64,000 nt of DNA, taken from assembly GCA_964495805.1 (NCBI GenBank), contig CAZBWV010000088.1, positions 28,886 through 92,885 on the forward strand, read 5' to 3'. Below, piece after piece: positions 11,895-61,688 of this stretch. Source of the stretch: an uncultured Calditrichaceae bacterium. Its GTDB lineage: Bacteria; Calditrichota; Calditrichia; RBG-13-44-9. Under the pieces are notes generated by a model, which did not search any database, was not told the origin of the DNA, and was given only the letters and a program-made list of their open reading frames with translations. Position 1 is the first letter of the stretch. Every line of letters begins with the position of its first letter. Both the position numbers and the translations under genes were made by a program.

Positions 11895-12141
11895 ATCCGC
11901 CCCATGTTTATTAAATAAAAAACTACGGAAACAATTCAGAAAATTCAAGCAGTTATTTCCAGTTTTTCAGACAATTCATGTTTTTATACCCAACCCATCC
12001 AATAAGTTTCCCCATCTCCCTCGCTTTCCTCTTTCATCTTTTCTCTTTTCTCTTTTTTTATTGGATACCCATAGATTTTCTCCTAAATTCGCACAACTTT
12101 TGCATTACAGCAAAATACATTTAACACAGGAGGAAATTCTC

Positions 12142-12948: not shown

Positions 12949-13359
12949 TTACCCCAATCCTGTCTCATCCTTCCGCAGGAATAACATGAAAGCGTCGTTC
13001 ACGTCTTCGAATTCCAGCGCGTGGCGCTTGCAGCCGTTGCGGGAACAGATTTTAATCGTTCCACCATATTCCAGTTGCAAGCCAATCATGGGTGCTTTGC
13101 ATTCACATATCTGTAGAACCGGAAAAGGTTCGTGGCAGTGGGGACAGGAAAAAGCAGCAATGGCACCAACCACGTCTTTCACACCTTCAAATTTTTTTTC
13201 GTAGCTCCCGTAAATCTGACTTAAATAAATTTTCCCCAGTTTACCGCCCATCTTTGCTTCCAGCTCAATAGCCGGTAAACCATCCAGCTTCACTTTATCG
13301 GTCAGTAACGATTTGCCACAATTCGAACACTTAACTGGTATGTTAATCTGGTGGCCCAT
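12949..13359 (-). CDS. Cys-rich zinc-ribbon protein, last gene of the NuoEF-fusion operon
   Basis: Four Cys pairs: CSNCG, CPHCH, CEC and CSRNGC. It starts 88 nt downstream of the fusion gene on the same strand. Confidence 0.5.
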   Translation of the reverse strand: MGHQINIPVKCSNCGKSLLTDKVKLDGLPAIELEAKMGGKLGKIYLSQIYGSYEKKFEGVKDVVGAIAAFSCPHCHEPFPVLQICECKAPMIGLQLEYGGTIKICSRNGCKRHALEFEDVNDAFMLFLRKDETGLG

Positions 13360-13447: not shown

Positions 13448-16400
13448 TTATACTTTTAGCACAAAATGCAAATCGTCGGTTCGGTATTTCACATTTCGAG
13501 AGGCCGAAAACGAATCGAACCACTTGAGCAGGAAGTTTCCGCCATAAGGCACCGTCTGAATACGGGCTTTTTTCAGAAGCTCCGGTTTCGGGATGTACCC
13601 ATTCCGGAACAGAGCAATTTCCTGGCGATATTCCGGAATCATCTGCTCAATTTCTGCGGTTACTTCCTCTCCGCGTTGCAATTTAAATATTCGCCCCAGA
13701 GATGCGCTCAAATCCACCAGAATTTGCCAGTTCTCCCGACCAATCCTGGAGGGAAGGGCGGCTCGAAATCGTTGTACCCGACCTTCTGCATTGGTGATGG
13801 TTCCGCTGTTTTCCGCAAACGGTGCCAGAGGGAATACAACATCCGCCTGTTTTGCCGTTTCGGTCATAAACATATCTGCAACAATCAGGAATTGGTGGTC
13901 TGATTTTTTCCATTTCATCTCAGCGGTTCCCAGCGGATCCTGTGCCCAGAAGATGGCTGCAGGAATTCGACCCAATCGCCACTCTTTCAGCAGTGCTGCT
14001 GTGGAACGCCCCGGGCGTCGGGGTAACTCTGCTTCCCACTCCTGATTAAACCGCTCGATAACCTGGGGATTGTCCACCCGCTGGTAGCCGGGTAAATATT
14101 CCGGTAACATCCCCATATCCAGCATCCCCTGGAAGTTTACCTCTTCGGGAACCGAAAGCAGAATTTCGCTTTTACCCAGCACATAAGCCAGGGTATTCAA
14201 CCAGTGCACGGTTTCCGCATCTCTGCGCGAACGATGACACACAAAGAGAGGACGTTCCGCTTTCAGCAGTTTTCGGAAGAATTTTTTCAACTCACCGGTA
14301 CTCAAGCCAAAATCGCTCGCTTTCTTTTTACGCGAGATTTCTCCAAGCTCGTTGCGCAGCATCTCCAGGGTGGAAGCGGGAATATGGCGGGCATATTTCT
14401 CCTGTTCGATTACAGAATCCACCAGAAATTTAAGGAATTCCACCCGATGTTCTTCAGAAACGGGTAAATTCTCGCCCCAGCGCGCCAGACGGGAATCCGG
14501 TTGATTCAGGATGTAGAGCGGTTGCCCGCGTCGGGCGGCTTTGTGCAGTTTAATGTAAAGCACGGGATGCGTTTCCATGGGGTCGAAATTGCCCACCAGC
14601 AGGAAGTCGCTGCTTTCAATCTTCTCGAATGTAGCATTGGACATGGAAGCGCGGAGCAACTCCTCGGGTAGTTCATTGAGATTGGCCAGTGAGCCCACAT
14701 TGTTGGTGCCCAGCACCACACGGGCAAACTTTTGTAACAGATAGTTCTCCTCATTGGTTACCGTCGGAGAACCAAAGACTGCCCATTCGGTATCTTCTTT
14801 TTGCAGATCCATAATACGTCGCGCAGTAAACAGGTACGCCTCGTCCCAGCTCACCGGTTGCAACTCACCATCTTTGCGGATATGGGGTTGAGTGAGCCGT
14901 TCATCGCTATTCACATAGCGGAACCCATACCGTCCCTTCACGCACAGATTGCCAAATTCGTTAACCACTGCTTCGCGGTCGGCAGAAGTTTTCATCCAGC
15001 GGTCGTCCAGAATTTCCGCCTGCAGGCTGCAGCCCACACTACAATACTGGCAGATGGTTTTCTCCTTTTCCAGAATCCACGGACCGGGTTTTACGGCATC
15101 CGGTTTGTCCACCAGAGCACCGGTGGGACAGGTTTCCACGCACTGTCCGCAGGAGATGCACTGGCTCTCTGCCAGCGGAACTTCCAGCGTCGGTTTGACC
15201 TTGGTGTCGAATCCACGCTTCACAAACCCGAACACACCCAATCCCATCACCTCGTCGCAGATGCGCACACAGCGGCCGCAAAGGATGCACTTATTCAATT
15301 CAATCTTAATGAAAGGATGACTGTCATCGGGTGGCAGGTCATGGAATTCTCCCTGAAATGCAGTCTGGTCCGCCTGATAATCGGTGGAATGTTTCTGTAA
15401 GTCGCACTCGTAGAATGCCTGGCATCCACACTCCAGGCAGCGCAGGGATTCCTGATACACCTGCTCTTCACTGAAGCCCAGTTCCACTTCTTCCCAGCTG
15501 TGCGCCCGCTCCCGGGCATCCCGGACGGGCATCTTCTGACGCGGAATTTTTGGAACATCAGCAAAATCTTCCGGTTGCGGCGGTCTCAGATTTTCCCGAC
15601 GACTGATGAACGGCTTCCTGGGATAGGCCAGTTCCTCTCCGGTAATGTATTTGTGAATGGCCTGGGCAGCTTTTCCTCCCTGAGCGATGGCTTCGATGGC
15701 AGTGGCTGGTCCCAGCACTACATCTCCCCCGGCAAACACACCGGGAATGTTGGTTTCCATGATTTCCGGTTTGACTTCCAGAGTACCCCAGCGGGTGGTT
15801 TTAATCTCCAGCAGCTTGCCATCCTTCCCGGCATACTCCAGGTCCGGCTTCTGCCCGATGGCGGCAATGACCCAATCCACCTCAATAACATAGTTGGAAC
15901 CCTCGATGGGAATGGGACGGCGACGTCCACTGGCATCGGGTGGTCCAAGCTCCATTTTCACACACTCAATGCCGGTTACCCGATTGTTTTCGTCGGTAAG
16001 AATTTTCACCGGTGCGGTCAGAAAGGTGAATTTGACTCCTTCTTCCCGGGCTTCTTCGATTTCAATTTTATTGGCAGGCATTTCTTTGATGGTGCGCCGG
16101 TAAACGATGTTGACCTCATCGGCTCCCAGGCGCAGCGCAGTCCGGGCGGCATCCATGGCTGTGTTTCCACCACCAATTACAGCTACTTTGCCAGAAAGCT
16201 TTTTCACCTTGCCCAGCTTTACCTCTTCCAGAAACTCGATTCCAGCCAGCACTCCTTCGGCATCTTCATTCTCCACACGCATACTGGTGCTGGCTTGCGC
16301 ACCCAATCCCAGAAAAATAGCTTCGTAACCGTCGTCAAATAGCGAATCGATGGTGAAATCCCGTCCCAGAGCTTTATTGCAATAGATTTCCACCCCCAGT

Positions 16401-17164
16401 TTTGTGATGCCTTCAATTTCTTTATCCAGGATTTTTTCCGGAAGGCGGTATTCGGGAATTCCCCAGCGCAGCATGCCACCGGGTTTGGGCTTGGCATCGA
16501 AAATGTGCACAGTGTGGCCTTCCTGACGCAGGTAATAGGCAGCAGAAAGTCCCGCCGGACCGGCGCCGATTATGGCAATCCGATGACCGGTATCCGGTTT
16601 TACCTCGGGGAAGTAACGGTCGGGACTCTCCAGATCGTAGTCCGCCAAAAAACGTTTAACGTGGTCGATGGCTTCCGCTTCATCCACCAGATTTCGCCGA
16701 CATGCCAGCTCGCAAGGTCGCGTACACACCCGACCGCATACCGTGGGGAGCGGATTGGTTTGTTTGATGAGCGCAATGGCTTCCTTGTATTTGCCCAGGG
16801 CGGCCAGCGCCAGATATCCCTGTACATCCACCCCGGCAGGACAGGTTAGTTTACACGGTCCCAGACAATCTGCATAATGGTTGCTCAGCATCAGCTCCAG
16901 CGCCATTTTGCGCGCTTCGCGAATCGCCTCGCTGTTGGTGGTAATCTTCATCCCGGGGTTTACTTTAGTGGCACAGGACGGTACAAACGTTCGGGCACCC
17001 TCCACCTGCACCACACATAGAAAACAGGAGGTAAACGGTTCCAGCTGATCATCGTGGCAAAGTGTGGGAATGTGAATTCCCTGTTCCCGACACACCTGCA
17101 AAATCGTCTGACCGCTTTCGGCAATCACCGTCTTCCCGTCTATAAATACCTGCACTTTGCTCAT
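13448..17164 (-). CDS. multidomain FeS flavoprotein: 2Fe-2S ferredoxin + GltD-like NAD(P)H oxidoreductase + NuoG-type FeS clusters + degenerate formate-dehydrogenase-like (MopB) domain
   Basis: N-terminal 2Fe-2S fold (CHDD...C..C). GltD motifs CLGPCKLTCP...NPLPTVCGRVCTRPCELAC, FAD/NAD folds IAIIGAGPAGLSAA and VAVIGGGNTAMDAA. Cluster motifs CLECGCQAFYEC, CILCGRCVRIC and CISCGQCVETCP. MopB N-terminal cluster CQYCSVGC...LCVKG. The catalytic Cys/Sec-His region is replaced by SLANLNELPEEL. Confidence 0.8.
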   Translation of the reverse strand: MSKVQVFIDGKTVIAESGQTILQVCREQGIHIPTLCHDDQLEPFTSCFLCVVQVEGARTFVPSCATKVNPGMKITTNSEAIREARKMALELMLSNHYADCLGPCKLTCPAGVDVQGYLALAALGKYKEAIALIKQTNPLPTVCGRVCTRPCELACRRNLVDEAEAIDHVKRFLADYDLESPDRYFPEVKPDTGHRIAIIGAGPAGLSAAYYLRQEGHTVHIFDAKPKPGGMLRWGIPEYRLPEKILDKEIEGITKLGVEIYCNKALGRDFTIDSLFDDGYEAIFLGLGAQASTSMRVENEDAEGVLAGIEFLEEVKLGKVKKLSGKVAVIGGGNTAMDAARTALRLGADEVNIVYRRTIKEMPANKIEIEEAREEGVKFTFLTAPVKILTDENNRVTGIECVKMELGPPDASGRRRPIPIEGSNYVIEVDWVIAAIGQKPDLEYAGKDGKLLEIKTTRWGTLEVKPEIMETNIPGVFAGGDVVLGPATAIEAIAQGGKAAQAIHKYITGEELAYPRKPFISRRENLRPPQPEDFADVPKIPRQKMPVRDARERAHSWEEVELGFSEEQVYQESLRCLECGCQAFYECDLQKHSTDYQADQTAFQGEFHDLPPDDSHPFIKIELNKCILCGRCVRICDEVMGLGVFGFVKRGFDTKVKPTLEVPLAESQCISCGQCVETCPTGALVDKPDAVKPGPWILEKEKTICQYCSVGCSLQAEILDDRWMKTSADREAVVNEFGNLCVKGRYGFRYVNSDERLTQPHIRKDGELQPVSWDEAYLFTARRIMDLQKEDTEWAVFGSPTVTNEENYLLQKFARVVLGTNNVGSLANLNELPEELLRASMSNATFEKIESSDFLLVGNFDPMETHPVLYIKLHKAARRGQPLYILNQPDSRLARWGENLPVSEEHRVEFLKFLVDSVIEQEKYARHIPASTLEMLRNELGEISRKKKASDFGLSTGELKKFFRKLLKAERPLFVCHRSRRDAETVHWLNTLAYVLGKSEILLSVPEEVNFQGMLDMGMLPEYLPGYQRVDNPQVIERFNQEWEAELPRRPGRSTAALLKEWRLGRIPAAIFWAQDPLGTAEMKWKKSDHQFLIVADMFMTETAKQADVVFPLAPFAENSGTITNAEGRVQRFRAALPSRIGRENWQILVDLSASLGRIFKLQRGEEVTAEIEQMIPEYRQEIALFRNGYIPKPELLKKARIQTVPYGGNFLLKWFDSFSASRNVKYRTDDLHFVLKV

Positions 17165-17436
17165 TTCTTGCTCCCATTCTTTAAAAAATTCCCGACATTC
17201 ATCCCCTCACCTCCGCTTTTCCGTCTATCTCTCAAAGCCATAACTTGCTCGCAATTCATTTCCATGTAAAAACCACATGTGCACAAAAATGAAACAGCTT
17301 CACCCCATCATCCCGTTCATTTTTTCCTGATCCACAATTTCCAATTCCCCAACACCTGGACTCCCCCACTTCTTTCAACCCTTTAAACCCCCATTCCCTT
17401 ACATCCCTTTCATTTTACATTTTACATTTCAACACC

Positions 17437-17520
17437 TCCCCTATCCCCCCATTTCCCCTATTCCCCTTATATCCCTTATATCCCCTATATCCCCTACATC
17501 CCCTATATCCCGTATTTCCC
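17437..17520. repeat. tandem 9-bp repeat, about 9 copies of ATCCCCTAT on the top strand (GGGGATATA-type G-tracts on the operon mRNA strand)
   Basis: Direct read: tcccctatc cccccattt cccctattc cccttatat cccttatat cccctatat cccctacat cccctatat cccgtattt. It lies in a 385-bp pyrimidine-rich non-coding spacer between the nuoF-like gene and the fusion gene. Confidence 0.7.
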
Positions 17521-17550
17521 TTCTACCCCTCACCTCCCTCCAACCCTTCC

Positions 17551-19371
17551 TCACGCCTCTTCCACTTCCTCCTTCACACCGGTTAAAATTTCGATGGCAT
17601 CGAACTTACACACATCGTAACAGGCGCCGCAGCGGGTACACATCTCTTCGTTGATGTAGTGCGGTTTCAGTTTTTCGCCGGTGATGGCGCCCACGGGACA
17701 GGCACGCAGGCACACCATGCAGCCAGTACAGGCGTCGGCAATAACCCGATAGGTAATCAGCGCCCGACAGCTTTTGGCGGGACATTCCTTGCGATAGATA
17801 TGGGCTTCGTACTCTTCCCGGAAGTATTTCAGCGTGGTTAGCACCGGATTGGGAGCCGTTTGCCCCAGACCGCACAGCGAACTTTTTTTGACGTTCTCCG
17901 CCAGTTTTTCCAGCTTATCCAGATCTTCCGGTTTGCCTTCGCCATTGGTGATGCGTTCCAGAATTTCCAGCATTCGTTTGGTACCCAGGCGGCAGAAGGT
18001 GCATTTACCGCACGATTCTTCCTGGGTAAAATTCAGGAAGAACTTCGCCACATCCACCATACAGGTGCGATCGTCCATGACCACCATACCACCGGAGCCC
18101 ATGATGGCGCCGGTTTTATTCAGCGATTCATAATCCACCGGTGTATCCAGCAGCTCTGCCGGGACGCACCCGCCGGAGGGACCACCCAACTGCACCGCTT
18201 TGAACTGTCGGTCGTCCTTGATGCCACCACCAATATCGAAAATGACTTCTTTCAGGGTCATTCCCATTGGTACTTCCACCATACCGCCGCGTTTAATTTT
18301 ACCGGCCAGAGCAAACACTTTGGTGCCCTTGCTTTTTTCCGTACCATAGCGGGCGAACTGGTCGGCGCCGTTCAGGATAATCCATGGCACATTGGCGTAG
18401 GTTTCCACATTGTTGATATTGGTGGGCTTCCCCCACAATCCTTTCACGGCAGGGAACGGCGGACGCAGGCGGGGCATACCACGCTTGCCTTCCACACTGG
18501 CAATCAGTGCTGTTTCCTCGCCGCACACAAACGCACCCGCTCCCAGCTTCAGCGAAATATCGAAAGAGAAATCGCTTCCCAGAATCTTCTTCCCCAGGAA
18601 TCCCTTTTCCCGCGCTTGCTGGATGGCAATTTCCAGCCGTTGCACCGCCAGAGGATACTCCGCGCGCACATAAATAATCCCTTCCTGCGCACCGATCGCA
18701 TATCCGGCAATCAGCATCCCTTCCAGCACGCTATGCGGGTCACCTTCCATGACGCTGCGATCCATAAAAGCGCCGGGGTCTCCTTCGTCTCCGTTGCAGA
18801 TGATATACTTGGTTTTTCCCGGTGACTGGCGGGCAAATTGCCATTTGATACCGGTGGGGAAACCGGCACCACCGCGTCCGCGCAAACCGGACTGCTTAAT
18901 CTCTTCAATGACCTCCTGCGGACTCATCCGGAACAGCACCTTGCGCAGCGCCTGGTAACCTTTTTGTGCCAGATAATCGTCGATATGCTCGGGATTGATT
19001 TTCCCGGCATTGCGCAGCACAATGCGAACCTGCCGCTCGAATAGCTCATTTTCCGCCTGCTCAATCCCCTCGCCTTTCACCACCCAATCTTCAATAATTT
19101 CCCTGTTCCGGAGGTGTTTTTCCAGAATCTGGGGCAGTTTCTTGGGAGTCACATCCCCGTAAATTACCGGGGGCATATCGGGCATCTGGATTTCGATGAG
19201 CGGTTCGCGGTAGCAGGCACCGATACAGCCGGTTTTTTCCAGTTCAACGGGTAAATTTTCCTGAGCAATCTTTTTCTCCAGCGCAGCGTACACATCGGCT
19301 GCTCCGGCAGCAATGCCACAACTGGCCATTCCCACCAATATCTTTATTTTTCCGTTTTTCGGGGAATTCAT
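17551..19371 (-). CDS. NuoF-like NADH-binding FMN/FeS flavoprotein (HydB/HndC/StnB-type) with a C-terminal 2x[4Fe-4S] ferredoxin domain
   Basis: GAGGAGFPTGIKW, CGKCTFCRLGT, and C-terminal motifs CTGCMVCLRACP and CTRCGACYDVC. Length is 606 aa. Confidence 0.85.
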   Translation of the reverse strand: MNSPKNGKIKILVGMASCGIAAGAADVYAALEKKIAQENLPVELEKTGCIGACYREPLIEIQMPDMPPVIYGDVTPKKLPQILEKHLRNREIIEDWVVKGEGIEQAENELFERQVRIVLRNAGKINPEHIDDYLAQKGYQALRKVLFRMSPQEVIEEIKQSGLRGRGGAGFPTGIKWQFARQSPGKTKYIICNGDEGDPGAFMDRSVMEGDPHSVLEGMLIAGYAIGAQEGIIYVRAEYPLAVQRLEIAIQQAREKGFLGKKILGSDFSFDISLKLGAGAFVCGEETALIASVEGKRGMPRLRPPFPAVKGLWGKPTNINNVETYANVPWIILNGADQFARYGTEKSKGTKVFALAGKIKRGGMVEVPMGMTLKEVIFDIGGGIKDDRQFKAVQLGGPSGGCVPAELLDTPVDYESLNKTGAIMGSGGMVVMDDRTCMVDVAKFFLNFTQEESCGKCTFCRLGTKRMLEILERITNGEGKPEDLDKLEKLAENVKKSSLCGLGQTAPNPVLTTLKYFREEYEAHIYRKECPAKSCRALITYRVIADACTGCMVCLRACPVGAITGEKLKPHYINEEMCTRCGACYDVCKFDAIEILTGVKEEVEEA

Positions 19372-19383
19372 CGGAATCGTCCT

Positions 19384-19872
19384 TTATTTTTGGTATTTCT
19401 TGAGAATTCGTTTGGTTTCCCGGTCGGTTAAACGGCCGTAAGTGGTGTCGTCTATCATCATCACCGGGGCCAGACTACAACACCCCAGGCAGGCCACCGA
19501 TTCCAGGGTAAACATGCCATCCGGTGTGGTATCCCCATCGGAGATGCCCAGAAATTCCTCGCACGCTTCGGTGATGCGTTCCGCACCGCTTACATGGCAG
19601 GCCGTTCCGTGACACACTTTGATGATATGCTTACCTACCGGTTTCAGACGAAATTGAGAATAAAATGTGGCAACCCCATAAATCTGACTCACATCGGTTC
19701 GGGTGGCCTCGGCTATGCGTACAATGGCTTCTTTAGGCAGATAACCATAAATTTTCTGCGTTTCCTGCAAAAGCTGAATAATCGTACCCGGTTTTTTGGC
19801 CAATTTTTTAAGAATACGATTCAGGGGTTTCAAATCGATGGATTCGGCGGTTTGTGCCAGACTTTCTGCCAT
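19384..19872 (-). CDS. NuoE-like thioredoxin-fold 2Fe-2S protein (HndA/StnA-type)
   Basis: CHGTACHVSG ... CLGCCSLAPV motifs of the 24-kDa subunit family. It starts 12 nt upstream of the nuoF-like gene. Confidence 0.85.
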   Translation of the reverse strand: MAESLAQTAESIDLKPLNRILKKLAKKPGTIIQLLQETQKIYGYLPKEAIVRIAEATRTDVSQIYGVATFYSQFRLKPVGKHIIKVCHGTACHVSGAERITEACEEFLGISDGDTTPDGMFTLESVACLGCCSLAPVMMIDDTTYGRLTDRETKRILKKYQK

Positions 19873-52732: not shown

Positions 52733-52831
52733 AAAGGGACGTCCGGAAAAACCCCGCAAGAAATCCGGTCAGAAATCCCGGAAGAAATCCCGGCGGAAAA
52801 AGAAAAGTAAGTGAATTAATTTTTACTGAGC

Positions 52832-58155: not shown

Positions 58156-58171
58156 TGGTACCCGGAATGCA
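58156..58171 (+). promoter_or_regulatory. candidate sigma-54 (-24/-12) element TGGTAC-N5-ATGCA upstream of etfBA
   Basis: The GG and GC dinucleotides have correct 10-bp spacing, matching 5/6 and 4/5 to TGGCAC-N5-TTGCA. It lies about 380 nt upstream of the etfB ATG. Confidence 0.25.
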
Positions 58172-58285
58172 GCGCCATTACTCAGCGCCCAACAGCCTTT
58201 CCGGTAATATGATTTTACTTTCCTGCCTAAAATCAGACAAAAATCATTTAGGGCTCACCGTTCGGAATGCAACATTGCCAAAACA

Positions 58286-58320
58286 ATCCCCCCTATATCC
58301 CCTATGTCCCTACTCCCCTT
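58286..58320. repeat. second locus of the 9-bp CCCCTAT(A/G)T G-tract repeat, about 4 copies
   Basis: atcccccct atatcccct atgtccct actcccct lies in the divergent rplM/etfB intergenic region. The G-rich strand is again the minus strand, upstream of rplM. Confidence 0.5.
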
Positions 58321-58550
58321 GCATCCTCCTTCCCCATCACCAAATTTTAAGAAGGTTTGCATTCCGGATTTCGAGTTATTATTATAGAAATGCGTAAGTT
58401 TATCGGGAAAATTTTCGGAAAAATCACCATCAGGAGTCGTTTAGGATTCCGCACACTTTTTTATTTACGAAAAACGATGGTTTTTCCTTGAATCCCGAGT
58501 AAAAAGCTCAGATCAACAACAACCTTTAATTAATTGAAGGAGGTAAGGCA

Positions 58551-60428: not shown

Positions 60429-61688
60429 TTACTCCCACGCTTCAAACTTCTCCACCAGATAATCTTTTTGTTGCTCAAAGATCCGGGCCTGCTGCTGGAT
60501 CACTGCTTCAGCTTCGGAATCACTCAGTTCGGCAACCTCCCGACAATACGAACCAACCCGACCGAAATATAGCGGTGTGATAATATCCACCAATCGCCGC
60601 CGGTTTCGCGACCAGGTCTGGTAAATAAACGCAAAATCGTACAAAATGCGCGCCCACAATTCAGACTGAAATTCCAGCACGTGCTCCTTCTTTGCCTTCT
60701 GATACACAGTTTCCAGACCCTCCAGGTTCTCCCGGGTCAGCACGTTTTCGTACAACGGCCGGAACTGCTCGTAGCCTTCGCAAAACTCCCGTTCCATCTT
60801 GCTTAAAGTGACCGCCACCGGCGGAATTTTCGGAATTTTTTTCAGCTCGTTCCAGATGGGTACCGCACTGTACGGCACATGGTCGCGCCATTTGTTTTCG
60901 TAGGTTCCCATTAAATAAAACATGGTGCTCACAACCTGCTGAAACATCGGTCCCAGGTCTTCGGCCGGGTCTTTGGGATCGTGGATTTTTGCACCCAGGT
61001 TGGCCTGTGTCAGCCGGTAACCTTCCGCAATGGCGGAGGTGGTCATCCAGATGTCGATGCCAAAGCGGGCAACATCGGTTAGCCATACATCCTGCCGGGC
61101 GTAAAAAGCCGCCAGCGTGCCGGAAAAACCAAAATCCCCGCCAATGGGCTGACGAATATCTTTACCATACAATGCGCGCGTCATGGGATACACAATGTGG
61201 TTGGTGATGGTGCCATCGTACTTGTGCCGGGTGTAATACGGGGCGACAAAGTCTGCTTTGCCTTCCAGAACAGGATGTACCAGAAAATGCACCCAATCCG
61301 GTTCGATGCTGCGCAAATCGGCATCCAGAACCGCACAGGCATCCGCTTTGGTGAGTACCGCAAATTCGAATACTGCCCGAAAAGAGGTGCCTTTGCCGGG
61401 AATTCCCCGGTAAATGCTCACCCGCCGGTGTATTTTCTCCGGAATCTTTGCCGCCTCCGCCTCTTCGCGGGTGTCATCCAGCGACCCACCGTCAGAAACC
61501 AGAATCGCCGACCGTTTATCCGGATAAAATTCGGCCAGCCCTTCTCCCACCATCTCCAGCACATGCCGAATGGTATCTTCATTATTAAAAGAAGGAATTC
61601 CAATTAAAATGTCAATCTCCCCCAACTCCTTTCCCCATTCCACCACACTTTTTCGTAAAGCAGAACTGTAATATTTCAGCTTTTTCAT
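60429..61688 (-). CDS. family-2-like glycosyltransferase resembling glucosyl/mannosyl-3-phosphoglycerate synthases
   Basis: GT-A fold markers (ILIGIPSFNNEDTI, DxD-like VLDADL). The overall layout resembles GpgS/MpgS-type enzymes. The assignment is tentative. Confidence 0.5.
   Translation of the reverse strand: MKKLKYYSSALRKSVVEWGKELGEIDILIGIPSFNNEDTIRHVLEMVGEGLAEFYPDKRSAILVSDGGSLDDTREEAEAAKIPEKIHRRVSIYRGIPGKGTSFRAVFEFAVLTKADACAVLDADLRSIEPDWVHFLVHPVLEGKADFVAPYYTRHKYDGTITNHIVYPMTRALYGKDIRQPIGGDFGFSGTLAAFYARQDVWLTDVARFGIDIWMTTSAIAEGYRLTQANLGAKIHDPKDPAEDLGPMFQQVVSTMFYLMGTYENKWRDHVPYSAVPIWNELKKIPKIPPVAVTLSKMEREFCEGYEQFRPLYENVLTRENLEGLETVYQKAKKEHVLEFQSELWARILYDFAFIYQTWSRNRRRLVDIITPLYFGRVGSYCREVAELSDSEAEAVIQQQARIFEQQKDYLVEKFEAWE

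What the first reader, a model, noticed from the sequence alone, without database searches (positions are those of the whole stretch)
17165..17550. 385-nt polypurine (on mRNA) intercistronic spacer with a 9-bp tandem G-tract repeat inside the NuoEF-fusion operon; potential G-quadruplex or protein-titration element
There is a 385-bp non-coding gap between the nuoF-like stop and the fusion-gene start. It is almost purely pyrimidine on the top strand and so purine-rich on the transcribed strand. From 17437 to 17520 it carries about nine tandem copies of ATCCCCTAT. On the mRNA this reads GGGGAUAUAGGGGAUGUAGGGGAUAUAGGGGAUAUAAGGG..., which is four or more G3-4 tracts with 5-nt loops and satisfies the canonical G4 motif. 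It also contains many GGA motifs of the kind bound by CsrA/RsmA-type proteins. Such a long structured spacer inside an energy-metabolism operon is unusual. It could uncouple expression of the downstream fusion gene.
Basis: seen in the sequence. Interest (0 to 1): 0.6.

Follow-up and report, generated by a model that had tools for sequence, protein, structure and literature searches.

The report
Hypervariable G-tract repeat in operon spacer
The long G-rich gap between two genes of this redox operon is a fast-changing, strain-specific pile-up of short tandem repeats made by DNA copying slippage; it is a known kind of bacterial repeat that could fold into G-quadruplexes, but nothing here shows it has a conserved regulatory job.

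Summary
A 386-nt gap (17165-17550) separates the nuoF-like stop from the start of the 1238-aa fusion gene. It holds about 13 phased 9-nt units (TAGGGGATA on the mRNA strand), a 7-nt AAATGTA array and further degenerate G-tracts. G makes up only 4.4% of the top strand, and 150 nt contain no G at all. This is the strongest G-quadruplex signal in the 64 kb.

The spacer is not conserved. Five of six orthologous operons, including the closest one at 84% protein identity, have spacers of 41-72 nt without G-tracts. A sixth carries an unrelated palindromic insert. Three strains that are about 99.5% identical carry three different alleles, two of them read in full (386 and 423 nt). Every indel is an exact multiple of 9 or 7 nt. 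SNP density is about 18 times that of the flanks, and two assemblies break at the array. A short second copy lies at 58283-58340.

Best reading: a lineage-specific compound microsatellite made by slippage. It is the same kind as the G4-forming GGGNATC repeats of Xanthomonas and Nostoc, which also sit just after stop codons on the coding strand and have no known function. G4 potential is supported in silico only. CsrA titration, a riboswitch, an internal promoter, a small gene and a mobile element are not supported. Interest is low to moderate.

The parts
17551..19371 (-). nuoF-like gene (606 aa; Complex1_51K, NADH_4Fe-4S, 2x Fer4). Its TGA stop at 17551-17553 abuts the repeat array.
17165..17550 (-). 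386-nt intercistronic spacer. On the mRNA strand it is G 40%, C 4%, purine 73%. It is lineage-specific: 41-72 nt in five orthologous operons.
17435..17550 (-). Array of about 13 phased 9-nt units, consensus TA(A/G)GGGATA, each with a G3-6 tract. The well-kept core found by TRF is 17437-17520. Unit number is polymorphic: +1 unit in L110.
17411..17429 (-). 7-nt AAATGTA array, 2.7 copies here. It has +2 copies in L001 and +4 copies in L110.
17340..17410 (-). Degenerate G-tract segment with irregular 9-17-nt spacing and small 9-nt two-copy repeats. It carries several strain SNPs, and those that touch G-runs are at the run edges.
17361..17510 (.). 150 nt with no G on the plus strand, so no C in the mRNA.
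17165..17277 (-). Proximal 113 nt, identical in all three strain alleles. It contains the fusion gene's Shine-Dalgarno-like GGGAG (17171-17175), 6 nt before the ATG.
17274..17285 (.). Overlapping palindromes TGTGCACATGTG. The other two strains have CACGTG here. It is a possible protein site or small hairpin, with no evidence of function.
17203..17214 (-). Promoter-proximal copy of the 12-nt direct repeat GGAGGTGAGGGG. Its partner is at 17526-17537. The pair brackets 323 nt, and deleting that stretch would leave a 63-nt spacer. The repeat is only marginally non-random (p about 0.07).
17526..17537 (-). Stop-codon-proximal copy of the 12-nt direct repeat GGAGGTGAGGGG.
13448..17164 (-). 1238-aa fusion gene (Fer2_4, GltD-like Fer4_20 + Pyr_redox_2, Fer4_Nqo3, Molybdop_Fe4S4, Molybdopterin). 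The N-terminus MSKVQVFIDGK is conserved in relatives.
58283..58340 (-). Short second copy of the same G-tract repeat. It shares the exact 15-mer TAGGGGATATAGGGG and contains one G4 motif. It lies in the divergent rplM/etfB intergenic region and is identical in three strains.

Best explanation
The spacer is a lineage-specific, hypervariable compound microsatellite. It consists of a phased array of 9-nt G-tract units, a 7-nt AAATGTA array and decayed G-tract units. The array grew, and still changes, by slipped-strand mispairing during replication. It sits inside an intercistronic gap that is only about 40-70 nt in relatives.

It belongs to the known kind of G-rich, quadruplex-prone simple-sequence repeats of bacterial intergenic DNA. 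Those repeats also sit directly after stop codons on the coding strand.

Shown here: the repeat exists, it is far beyond chance, it is absent from orthologous operons, its unit number differs between strains, it has excess SNPs, and its G4 propensity is very high in silico.

Inferred: it has no dedicated, conserved function. Its main consequence is to lengthen the untranslated gap between nuoF and the fusion gene, so translational coupling is lost. The fusion gene is then translated from its own GGGAG ribosome-binding site, which lies in the invariant proximal 113 nt. The insert is tolerated in this orientation because a G-rich, almost C-free RNA with no hairpins offers neither an intrinsic terminator nor a Rho loading site; Rho prefers C-rich, G-poor RNA (established knowledge). 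Operon transcription therefore reads through. Any G4 or R-loop formed on the mRNA or the non-template strand would at most damp downstream expression, in a way that depends on unit number.
For: Existence and non-randomness:
- TRF finds 9.4 copies. A two-unit 18-mer matches 7 times against 0.03 expected.
- There are 150 nt without G, and this is the most skewed window of the 64 kb.

Lineage specificity:
- The nuoE-nuoF-fusion-136aa operon is syntenic in L002, L003, L091, L092, L093 and L094.
- The spacer is 66, 229 (an unrelated nested-palindrome insert), 72, 41, 44 and 41 nt respectively, with no G4 motif in any of them.
- BLAST homology to L002 stops at the stop codon and resumes 20 nt before the ATG.

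Instability:
- Three alleles occur in strains about 99.5% identical: 386 nt in the window, 423 nt in L110 and a truncated L001.
- The indels are +9, +14 and +28 nt, exact multiples of the 9- and 7-nt units.
- There are 8 SNPs in 346 nt of spacer against 8 in 6167 nt of flanks.
- Contigs L001 and L096 end inside the array.

No other function detected:
- No Rfam hit on either strand at E <= 10.
- No promoter-like site in the spacer and no terminator-like site.
- Watson-Crick folding is weaker than in shuffles.

Same kind as a known class: Rehm et al. 2015 (PMC4692102) describe G4-forming GGGAATC / GGGGA(C/T)T repeats of 2-26 units. [quoted passage not shown]

The motif arises repeatedly: similar 9- and 10-nt G-tract arrays occur sporadically in unrelated contigs.
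Against: Some features hint at constraint on the G-tracts.
- Every one of the roughly 13 units keeps at least three Gs, while the loops vary. Columns 5-6 are invariant and 22 mismatches fall elsewhere.
- The 5-6 strain SNPs that touch G-runs all hit run edges and never reduce a run below G3. The numbers are small. Exchange between variant units could also produce this pattern.

An exact 15-mer is shared with a second intergenic locus. This means the motif is not a one-off accident, and a sequence-specific process or factor is not excluded.

The origin of the 175 nt of non-repetitive spacer (17165-17340) is unexplained.

Tolerance through Rho evasion is inference only. No transcript data exist.
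Confidence: 0.6

Rival explanations
1. Functional G-quadruplex element. Four or more of the G-tracts fold into RNA G4s on the operon mRNA, or into DNA G4 or R-loops on the non-template strand. This attenuates or uncouples expression of the fusion gene. Unit-number changes would act as a tunable, contingency-like rheostat for subunit stoichiometry.
For: - This is the highest G4Hunter score of the window, and it holds 4 of the window's 5 canonical motifs.
- The G4-aware MFE is -77.4 against -35.5 kcal/mol without the G4 term, and there are no C residues to compete.
- The G-rich strand is the transcribed-sense strand.
- G3 cores are kept in all units and all alleles.
- The class-level positional bias near stop codons reported in PMC4692102 suggests that position matters.
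Against: - The element is absent from every orthologous operon outside the strain cluster.
- It is hypervariable, with an elevated SNP load.
- About 24 G-runs is far more than the four needed for a G4.
- No function was found for the best-studied repeats of this kind.
- RNA G4s are reported to be depleted in bacteria (title of Guo & Bartel 2016, listed as a reference in PMC6974567); that they are deleterious there is from my own recollection of that paper, which was not read here. This argues for tolerance rather than use.
Confidence: 0.2
2. The inserted DNA brought or created an internal promoter or operator. The fusion gene would then be transcribed separately from nuoEF, under its own regulator. 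The operator would be in the proximal, non-repetitive 175 nt that contains the palindrome TGTGCACATGTG.
For: - The proximal 113 nt are invariant in three alleles while the distal part varies.
- There is an overlapping 8-bp palindrome pair at 17274-17285.
- 386 nt is long enough to hold a promoter.
Against: - The sigma-70 scan finds no promoter-like site in the spacer on the minus strand and no terminator after nuoF.
- The palindrome itself is polymorphic: A to G at 17278.
- With so few SNPs, invariance of 113 nt is not significant (p about 0.07 at the spacer's own rate).
- Relatives are clearly co-transcribed units with 41-72-nt gaps.
Confidence: 0.08
3. A roughly 323-nt foreign or duplicated segment was inserted at a 12-nt target, GGAGGTGAGGGG. 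The direct repeats would then be target-site or duplication boundaries, and the microsatellites came with it or grew inside it.
For: - A 12-nt exact direct repeat (15 of 17) brackets 323 nt. Removing it leaves a 63-nt spacer, within the 41-72-nt range of relatives.
Against: - The repeat is only marginally unexpected in this composition (p about 0.07).
- There are no terminal inverted repeats.
- The non-repeat part has no other copy in the window or in any fetched locus.
- The reconstructed 63-nt spacer does not align significantly with that of L002.
Confidence: 0.06
4. Protein-titration RNA (a CsrA/RsmA sponge), or a small coding gene: the 37-aa ORF at 17441-17554 with (G/R)D(I/V) repeats, whose GTG start is coupled to the nuoF TGA.
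For: - There are 27 GGA motifs.
- An ORF stays open through the array because the unit is 9 nt, and it has a GTGA start/stop overlap.
Against: - GGA is 27 against 20.4 +/- 3.2 from composition alone.
- No hairpins present the GGA motifs.
- There is no Rfam match and no own promoter or terminator.
- The ORF is absent in relatives.
- Two of three frames are open across the array.
- One strain difference read inside the ORF, G to A at 17485, changes a Gly codon to Arg (my reading of the L001 allele).
Confidence: 0.04

Closest known systems
G-quadruplex-forming G-rich simple-sequence repeats of Xanthomonas (GGGAATC) and Nostoc/Anabaena (GGGGA(C/T)T), Rehm et al. 2015, PMC4692102
   Same: - Head-to-tail short units, each with one G3-4 tract followed by an AT-containing linker that starts GGGGAT.
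- Arrays of 2-26 units.
- Non-coding bias.
[quoted passage not shown] Here the array starts at the first base after the stop.
- Length and sequence variation between close relatives.
- Probably transcribed as part of operons.
- No function known.
   Different: - The unit is 9 nt (TAGGGGATA), not 7 nt.
- The host is an uncultured bacterium whose nearest named relatives are Calditrichia MAGs.
- The array is compounded with a 7-nt AAATGTA array and 175 nt of unique sequence.
- Genome-wide abundance is unknown. Only two loci were seen in 64 kb.
- G4 folding has not been measured.
Phase-variation (contingency) simple-sequence repeats of Haemophilus and Neisseria
   Same: - Unit-number polymorphism arising by slipped-strand mispairing.
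- An intergenic SSR could change expression of the downstream gene.
   Different: - The units are 9 and 7 nt and lie in an untranslated intercistronic gap. They are neither within a reading frame nor between -35 and -10 elements.
- The neighbouring genes are core redox enzymes, not surface or restriction genes.
- No on/off logic is evident.
Bacterial regulatory RNA G-quadruplexes (for example those reported in E. coli and Pseudomonas by rG4-seq, PMC6974567; PE/PPE transcripts of M. tuberculosis, PMC10801317)
   Same: G-tracts on the sense strand of an mRNA, close to a translation start.
   Different: - Those are single G4 motifs, not a 24-G-run variable array. That their positions are conserved or fixed is my assumption; neither paper was read for it.
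- No experimental signal exists here.
REP/MITE-type intergenic insertions
   Same: - Lineage-specific extra DNA in an intercistronic gap.
- The relative L003 carries a nested-palindrome element at exactly this site.
   Different: - The window's insert has no inverted repeats at all.
- It is made of tandem repeats, not palindromic ones.

Membership tests
G4-prone G-rich SSRs of bacterial intergenic DNA (Rehm et al. 2015 kind) | Head-to-tail repeats of a short (6-9 nt) unit, each carrying one G3-4 tract | tested here: met
   TRF finds period 9 with 9.4 copies. Eleven ungapped units plus two more all carry G3 or longer.
G4-prone G-rich SSRs of bacterial intergenic DNA (Rehm et al. 2015 kind) | At least four consecutive intact G-tracts with short loops, so the sequence is G4-capable | tested here: met
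   Four non-overlapping (G3+N1-7)x4 matches in the gap. G4Hunter reaches -2.40.
G4-prone G-rich SSRs of bacterial intergenic DNA (Rehm et al. 2015 kind) | Located between co-oriented ORFs, within 50 bp of the upstream stop codon, G-rich on the coding strand | tested here: met
   The array begins at 17550, the first base after the nuoF TGA. Both genes are on the minus strand, which is the G-rich strand.
G4-prone G-rich SSRs of bacterial intergenic DNA (Rehm et al. 2015 kind) | Unit number varies between closely related genomes | tested here: met
   +9 nt in L110; +14 nt in L001 and +28 nt in L110 in the 7-mer array.
G4-prone G-rich SSRs of bacterial intergenic DNA (Rehm et al. 2015 kind) | Many copies dispersed over the genome with a non-coding bias | tested here: inconclusive
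   Two loci in 64 kb, both intergenic, share an exact 15-mer. The rest of the genome was not available, and my two large-collection scans used a mis-phased pattern.
G4-prone G-rich SSRs of bacterial intergenic DNA (Rehm et al. 2015 kind) | Heptamer consensus GGGNATC / GGGGA(C/T)T | tested here: not met
   The unit is the 9-mer TA(A/G)GGGATA. It is the same kind of repeat but not the same sequence family.
G4-prone G-rich SSRs of bacterial intergenic DNA (Rehm et al. 2015 kind) | K+-dependent G4 folding of the repeat in vitro (CD, melting) | not testable with these tools
   Only an energy-model prediction is available: -77.4 against -35.5 kcal/mol.
CsrA/RsmA-titrating RNAs (CsrB/RsmZ type) | Multiple GGA motifs exposed in hairpin loops | tested here: not met
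   There is no stable secondary structure: z = +1.4, and 91 of 100 shuffles fold at least as well. GGA is only 27 against 20.4 expected.
CsrA/RsmA-titrating RNAs (CsrB/RsmZ type) | Independent transcription unit (own promoter and terminator) and a match to a known RNA family | tested here: not met
   No promoter-like site in the spacer and no terminator-like site. No Rfam hit at E <= 10.
Riboswitch or leader RNA upstream of a molybdopterin-type oxidoreductase (e.g. Moco RNA) | Match to a curated covariance model; conserved structured leader in orthologues | tested here: not met
   No Rfam match. The orthologous spacers are 41-72 nt and unrelated.
MITE / IS-derived insertion | Terminal inverted repeats | tested here: not met
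   0 inverted-repeat pairs in 17100-17620.
MITE / IS-derived insertion | Target-site duplication flanking the insert, and further copies elsewhere | tested here: inconclusive
   A 12-nt direct repeat brackets 323 nt, but p is about 0.07. The unique part has no other copy in the DNA held.
Phase-variable contingency locus | The SSR is placed so that unit number switches a reading frame or the promoter spacing | tested here: not met
   The repeats lie in an untranslated intercistronic gap. No promoter hexamers flank them, and the only ORF across them is not conserved.

The most novel reading that the evidence does not exclude
The array is an adaptive, copy-number-tunable 'Rho-proof' G-quadruplex spacer. 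By folding into RNA G4s or G-loops, it would set the translation or transcription ratio between the NuoEF-like flavoprotein module and the 1238-aa Fe-S/GltD/molybdopterin-type subunit. Slippage would generate heritable expression variants in the population. The 9-mer family would mark a set of such tunable junctions across this uncultured, probably Calditrichota, genome.
Probability: 0.1. Interest if true: 0.6.

Novelty: new member of a known kind. Interest (0 to 1): 0.27.

Why it matters
For annotation, the result says this 386-nt gap should be labelled a variable tandem repeat. It is not a riboswitch, an sRNA or a missed gene. It also explains why short-read assemblies of this organism break at this point.

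Biologically, it extends the little-studied class of G4-prone 6-9-nt repeats to a 9-nt unit and to a lineage outside xanthomonads and cyanobacteria. [quoted passage not shown] That recurrence is the part worth following. Either the replication or repair machinery creates such arrays preferentially there, or only G-rich, C-poor expansions are tolerated inside operons.

If unit number were shown to tune downstream expression, this would be a natural example of an SSR rheostat inside a core redox operon.

Tried and rejected
1. Large-collection scans. The pattern I used, GGGRATRTARGGGRATRTARGGG, has a 10-nt period and does not match the window's 9-nt unit. I noticed this only. Both single-use scans of genome contigs and metagenome contigs were therefore spent without testing how the 9-mer family is distributed. 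They showed only that 10-nt G-tract arrays occur sporadically in many taxa; 5 of the 20 genome hits are cyanobacteria or Melainabacteria. The correctly phased pattern was verified on the window and run on viral contigs. It found 6 unrelated contigs with short arrays.

2. Rfam at E <= 10 on both strands: nothing.

3. Promoter and terminator scan: nothing in the spacer.

4. A decayed duplicate of the fusion gene's 5' end inside the spacer (ATAGACGGAAAAGCGG against ATAGACGGGAAGACGG). The local alignment score is 21 against 18.6 +/- 2.8 in shuffles, so it is not significant and was dropped.

5. Reconstructed 63-nt ancestral spacer aligned with the 66-nt spacer of L002: not significant outside the last 20 nt.

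6. A third G4Hunter peak at 61611-61646 lies in the coding sequence of a glycosyltransferase and is unrelated.

7. Extra strain alleles sought through NuoE and the 136-aa protein: only fragments that do not reach the spacer.

8. Organism names through exact cluster look-up: none given. The Calditrichia assignment rests only on the names of homologues at 46-65% identity.

9. An ATGA overlap between a 34-41-aa upstream ORF and the fusion start. The overlap depends on the second codon and is not conserved in relatives, so it was rejected as a leader peptide.

Full report
**What is there**

Three ORFs lie on the minus strand. A nuoE-like ORF is at 19384-19872. A nuoF-like ORF is at 17551-19371, with Complex1_51K, NADH_4Fe-4S and two Fer4 domains. 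A 1238-aa ORF is at 13448-17164; it joins a 2Fe-2S domain, a GltD-like FAD/NAD(P) module, and NuoG/FdhA-like Fe-S and molybdopterin-oxidoreductase domains.

Between the nuoF TGA and the fusion ATG lie 386 nt, 17165-17550. The top-strand composition is C156, T125, A88, G17. That is 73% pyrimidine, so it is not 'almost pure'. The real extreme is G depletion, which means C depletion in the mRNA: 4.4% overall, and none at all in 17361-17510. It is the most strand-skewed 385-nt window of the 64 kb.

**Anatomy of the spacer**

TRF reports a 9-nt unit with 9.4 copies at 17437-17520 and a 7-nt unit CATTTTA with 2.7 copies at 17411-17429.

Read on the mRNA strand in an ungapped 9-nt register, the array starts at the very first base after the stop codon. 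The units are GGAAGGGTT, GGAGGGAGG, TGAGGGGTA, GAAGGGAAA, TACGGGATA, TAGGGGATG, TAGGGGATA, TAGGGGATA, TAAGGGATA, TAAGGGGAA and TAGGGGAAA, followed by TGGGGGGA and TAGGGGAGG. That is about 13 units. All keep at least G3, while the linkers vary.

After the array come (AAATGTA)n and about 70 nt of irregular G-tracts. The last 175 nt have ordinary composition and end in GGGAG-N6-ATG.

A two-unit 18-mer matches 7 times in the window against 0.03 expected. All five canonical G4 motifs of the 64 kb fall in this gap (four) or in a short second copy at 58288-58318.

**Structure predictions**

Watson-Crick folding is weaker than in shuffled controls: -35.5 against -39.7 +/- 2.9 kcal/mol, z = +1.4. When ViennaRNA's G-quadruplex term is allowed, the MFE falls to -77.4 kcal/mol with several G4s. 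G4Hunter reaches -2.40 at 17434, the only place in the window with a score of 2.0 or more.

There is no Rfam match on either strand at E <= 10. There is no sigma-70-like promoter in the spacer and no intrinsic terminator.

**Comparison with orthologous operons**

The fusion protein has many homologues. The nearest named ones are Calditrichia MAG proteins.

I fetched six orthologous loci. All keep the order nuoE, nuoF, fusion, then a 136-aa ORF. The nuoF-fusion spacer lengths are:

| Locus | Protein identity to window | Spacer (nt) |
|---|---|---|
| L002 | 84% | 66 |
| L091 | 70% | 72 |
| L092 | 66% | 41 |
| L093 | 65% | 44 |
| L094 | 66% | 41 |
| L003 | 69% | 229 |

- In L002 the gene call starts 22 codons too early, at an in-frame ATG.
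- In L003 the extra DNA is an unrelated element built of three nested perfect inverted repeats.
- None of the six spacers has a G4 motif.
- Nucleotide homology between the window and L002 stops at the stop codon and resumes 20 nt before the ATG.

The roughly 320 extra nucleotides are therefore specific to the window's own lineage.

**Comparison among strains**

Three independent assemblies of near-identical strains (99.5-99.9% nucleotide identity) cover the site.

- L110 (GCA_054029175.1) spans it with a 423-nt spacer. It has one extra 9-nt unit and four extra AAATGTA units.
- L001 (JGI 3300028908) starts inside the 9-mer array and has two extra AAATGTA units.
- L096, a second contig of GCA_054029175.1, ends 38 nt into the spacer.

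Every indel is an exact multiple of the unit length, which is the signature of slipped-strand mispairing.

Against L001 the spacer has 8 SNPs in 346 nt, while the flanks have 8 in 6167 nt. The 113 nt next to the fusion start are identical in all three alleles. The 5-6 SNPs that touch G-runs all lie at run edges, and no run falls below G3. This is a weak hint of constraint on the tracts. It could also result from exchange between the two unit variants, TAGGGGATA and TAAGGGATA.

**The second copy**

At 58283-58340 the minus strand reads GGGGAAGGAGGATGCAAGGGGAGTAGGGACATAGGGGATATAGGGGGG. It shares the exact 15-mer TAGGGGATATAGGGG with the main array. It lies in the 709-nt divergent region between rplM (minus strand) and etfB (plus strand). 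It is identical in three strains. The motif is thus a small dispersed family in this genome, and short copies appear to be stable.

I could not measure its genome-wide abundance. My two large scans used a pattern with a 10-nt period that does not match the 9-nt unit (recognised). A correctly phased pattern hits the window three times. In viral contigs it finds six unrelated short arrays. Together with the 10-mer hits, this shows that such G-tract arrays arise repeatedly in unrelated genomes.

**Closest known kind**

Rehm et al. 2015 (PMC4692102) describe the GGGAATC repeats of Xanthomonas and the GGGGA(C/T)T repeats of Nostoc.

- Arrays have 2-26 units.
- The authors identified 186 and 183 repeat patterns in the two Xanthomonas genomes, over-represented in non-coding DNA.
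- The repeats fold into G4 in vitro.
- They vary in length between close relatives.
- Most are transcribed.
- No function was identified.

The present element matches that description in unit architecture, G4 capacity, position and variability. It differs in unit length (9 rather than 7 nt), in host, and in being compounded with a second microsatellite and 175 nt of unique sequence.

**Most likely mechanism**

The element is a slippage-generated compound microsatellite that inflated a short intercistronic gap. That much is shown.

Its consequences are inferred. Translational coupling between nuoF and the fusion gene is lost. The fusion gene then relies on its own ribosome-binding site in the invariant proximal segment. 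The G-rich, C-free, unstructured RNA provides neither a terminator nor the C-rich, G-poor substrate that Rho prefers (established knowledge about rut sites). This would explain why such a long untranslated stretch is tolerated in this orientation inside an operon. G4 or R-loop formation could damp downstream expression in a way that depends on unit number, but nothing here shows that it does.

**Rivals**

- A selected G4 rheostat (probability about 0.2).
- An internal promoter or operator in the proximal part (about 0.08).
- Insertion of a 323-nt segment bracketed by the 12-nt direct repeat GGAGGTGAGGGG (about 0.06). Removing that segment would leave a 63-nt spacer like those of relatives, but the repeat is only marginally non-random, p about 0.07.
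- CsrA titration, or the 37-aa (G/R)D(I/V)-repeat ORF (about 0.04 together). GGA is 27 against 20.4 +/- 3.2 expected, and there are no hairpins, no Rfam hit and no conservation.

**Verdict**

The element is a new member of a known kind of bacterial repeat, with no demonstrated function. Interest is low to moderate.

Noticed in passing
window 58163-58366: The short second copy of the G-tract repeat sits in the 84-nt loop of a perfect 10-bp inverted repeat, CGGAATGCAA / TTGCATTCCG. All three exact CGGAATGCA sites of the 64-kb window cluster within these 200 nt of the rplM/etfB divergent intergenic region. This may be a regulator-binding motif or a small palindromic element.
   Followed up: partly
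window 11990-12056: This is another purine-rich (minus strand) simple repeat: (AGAAAAG) x4.7 followed by the G-tracts GAGGGAGATGGGG. It lies in the divergent intergenic region between an FKBP-type gene (plus strand) and a gene on the minus strand called as 85 aa in L001. It suggests that this genome accumulates purine-rich SSRs in non-coding DNA.
   Followed up: no
L003 4809-4948: A relative at 69% protein identity carries an unrelated element of about 140 nt in exactly the same nuoF-fusion spacer. The element is made of three nested perfect 10-11-bp inverted repeats (REP/MITE-like). This junction has therefore been hit independently by different repeat types.
   Followed up: partly
L002 5001-5066: The public gene call for the fusion protein of the closest relative (1260 aa) starts at an in-frame ATG directly after the nuoF stop. 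That is 22 codons upstream of the conserved MSKVQVFIDGK start, so the start is probably mis-annotated.
   Followed up: partly
window 12949-13359 (minus strand): A 136-aa ORF with no Pfam match directly follows the fusion gene in the window and in all orthologous loci fetched. It is probably an uncharacterised fourth subunit or accessory protein of this NuoEF-fusion complex.
   Followed up: no
window 17441-17554 (minus strand): A 37-aa ORF, MRKGWREVRGRREIRDIGDVGDIGDIRDIRGIGEMGG, has a GTG start that overlaps the nuoF TGA (GTGA). It stays open only because the repeat unit is 9 nt. It is not present in relatives.
   Followed up: partly
window 17274-17285: Overlapping palindromes TGTGCACATGTG lie in the non-repetitive part of the spacer. 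The other two strains read TGTGCACGTGTG. No function has been assigned.
   Followed up: no
window 52743-52799: A 12-nt / 24-nt tandem repeat (CCGGAAGAAATC x4.3) was reported by TRF. Its context was not examined.
   Followed up: no
L012, L015, L020 (Oscillatoria genomes) and L017, L041, L049, L077: The mis-phased scan turned up 10-nt G-tract arrays, (GGGGAATGTA)n, in Oscillatoria. It also turned up a recurring unit in which CCCCC-containing and GGGGGATATAGGGGGATATAGGGGG segments face each other as an inverted pair. These are further, unrelated examples of G4-prone repeat families.
   Followed up: no
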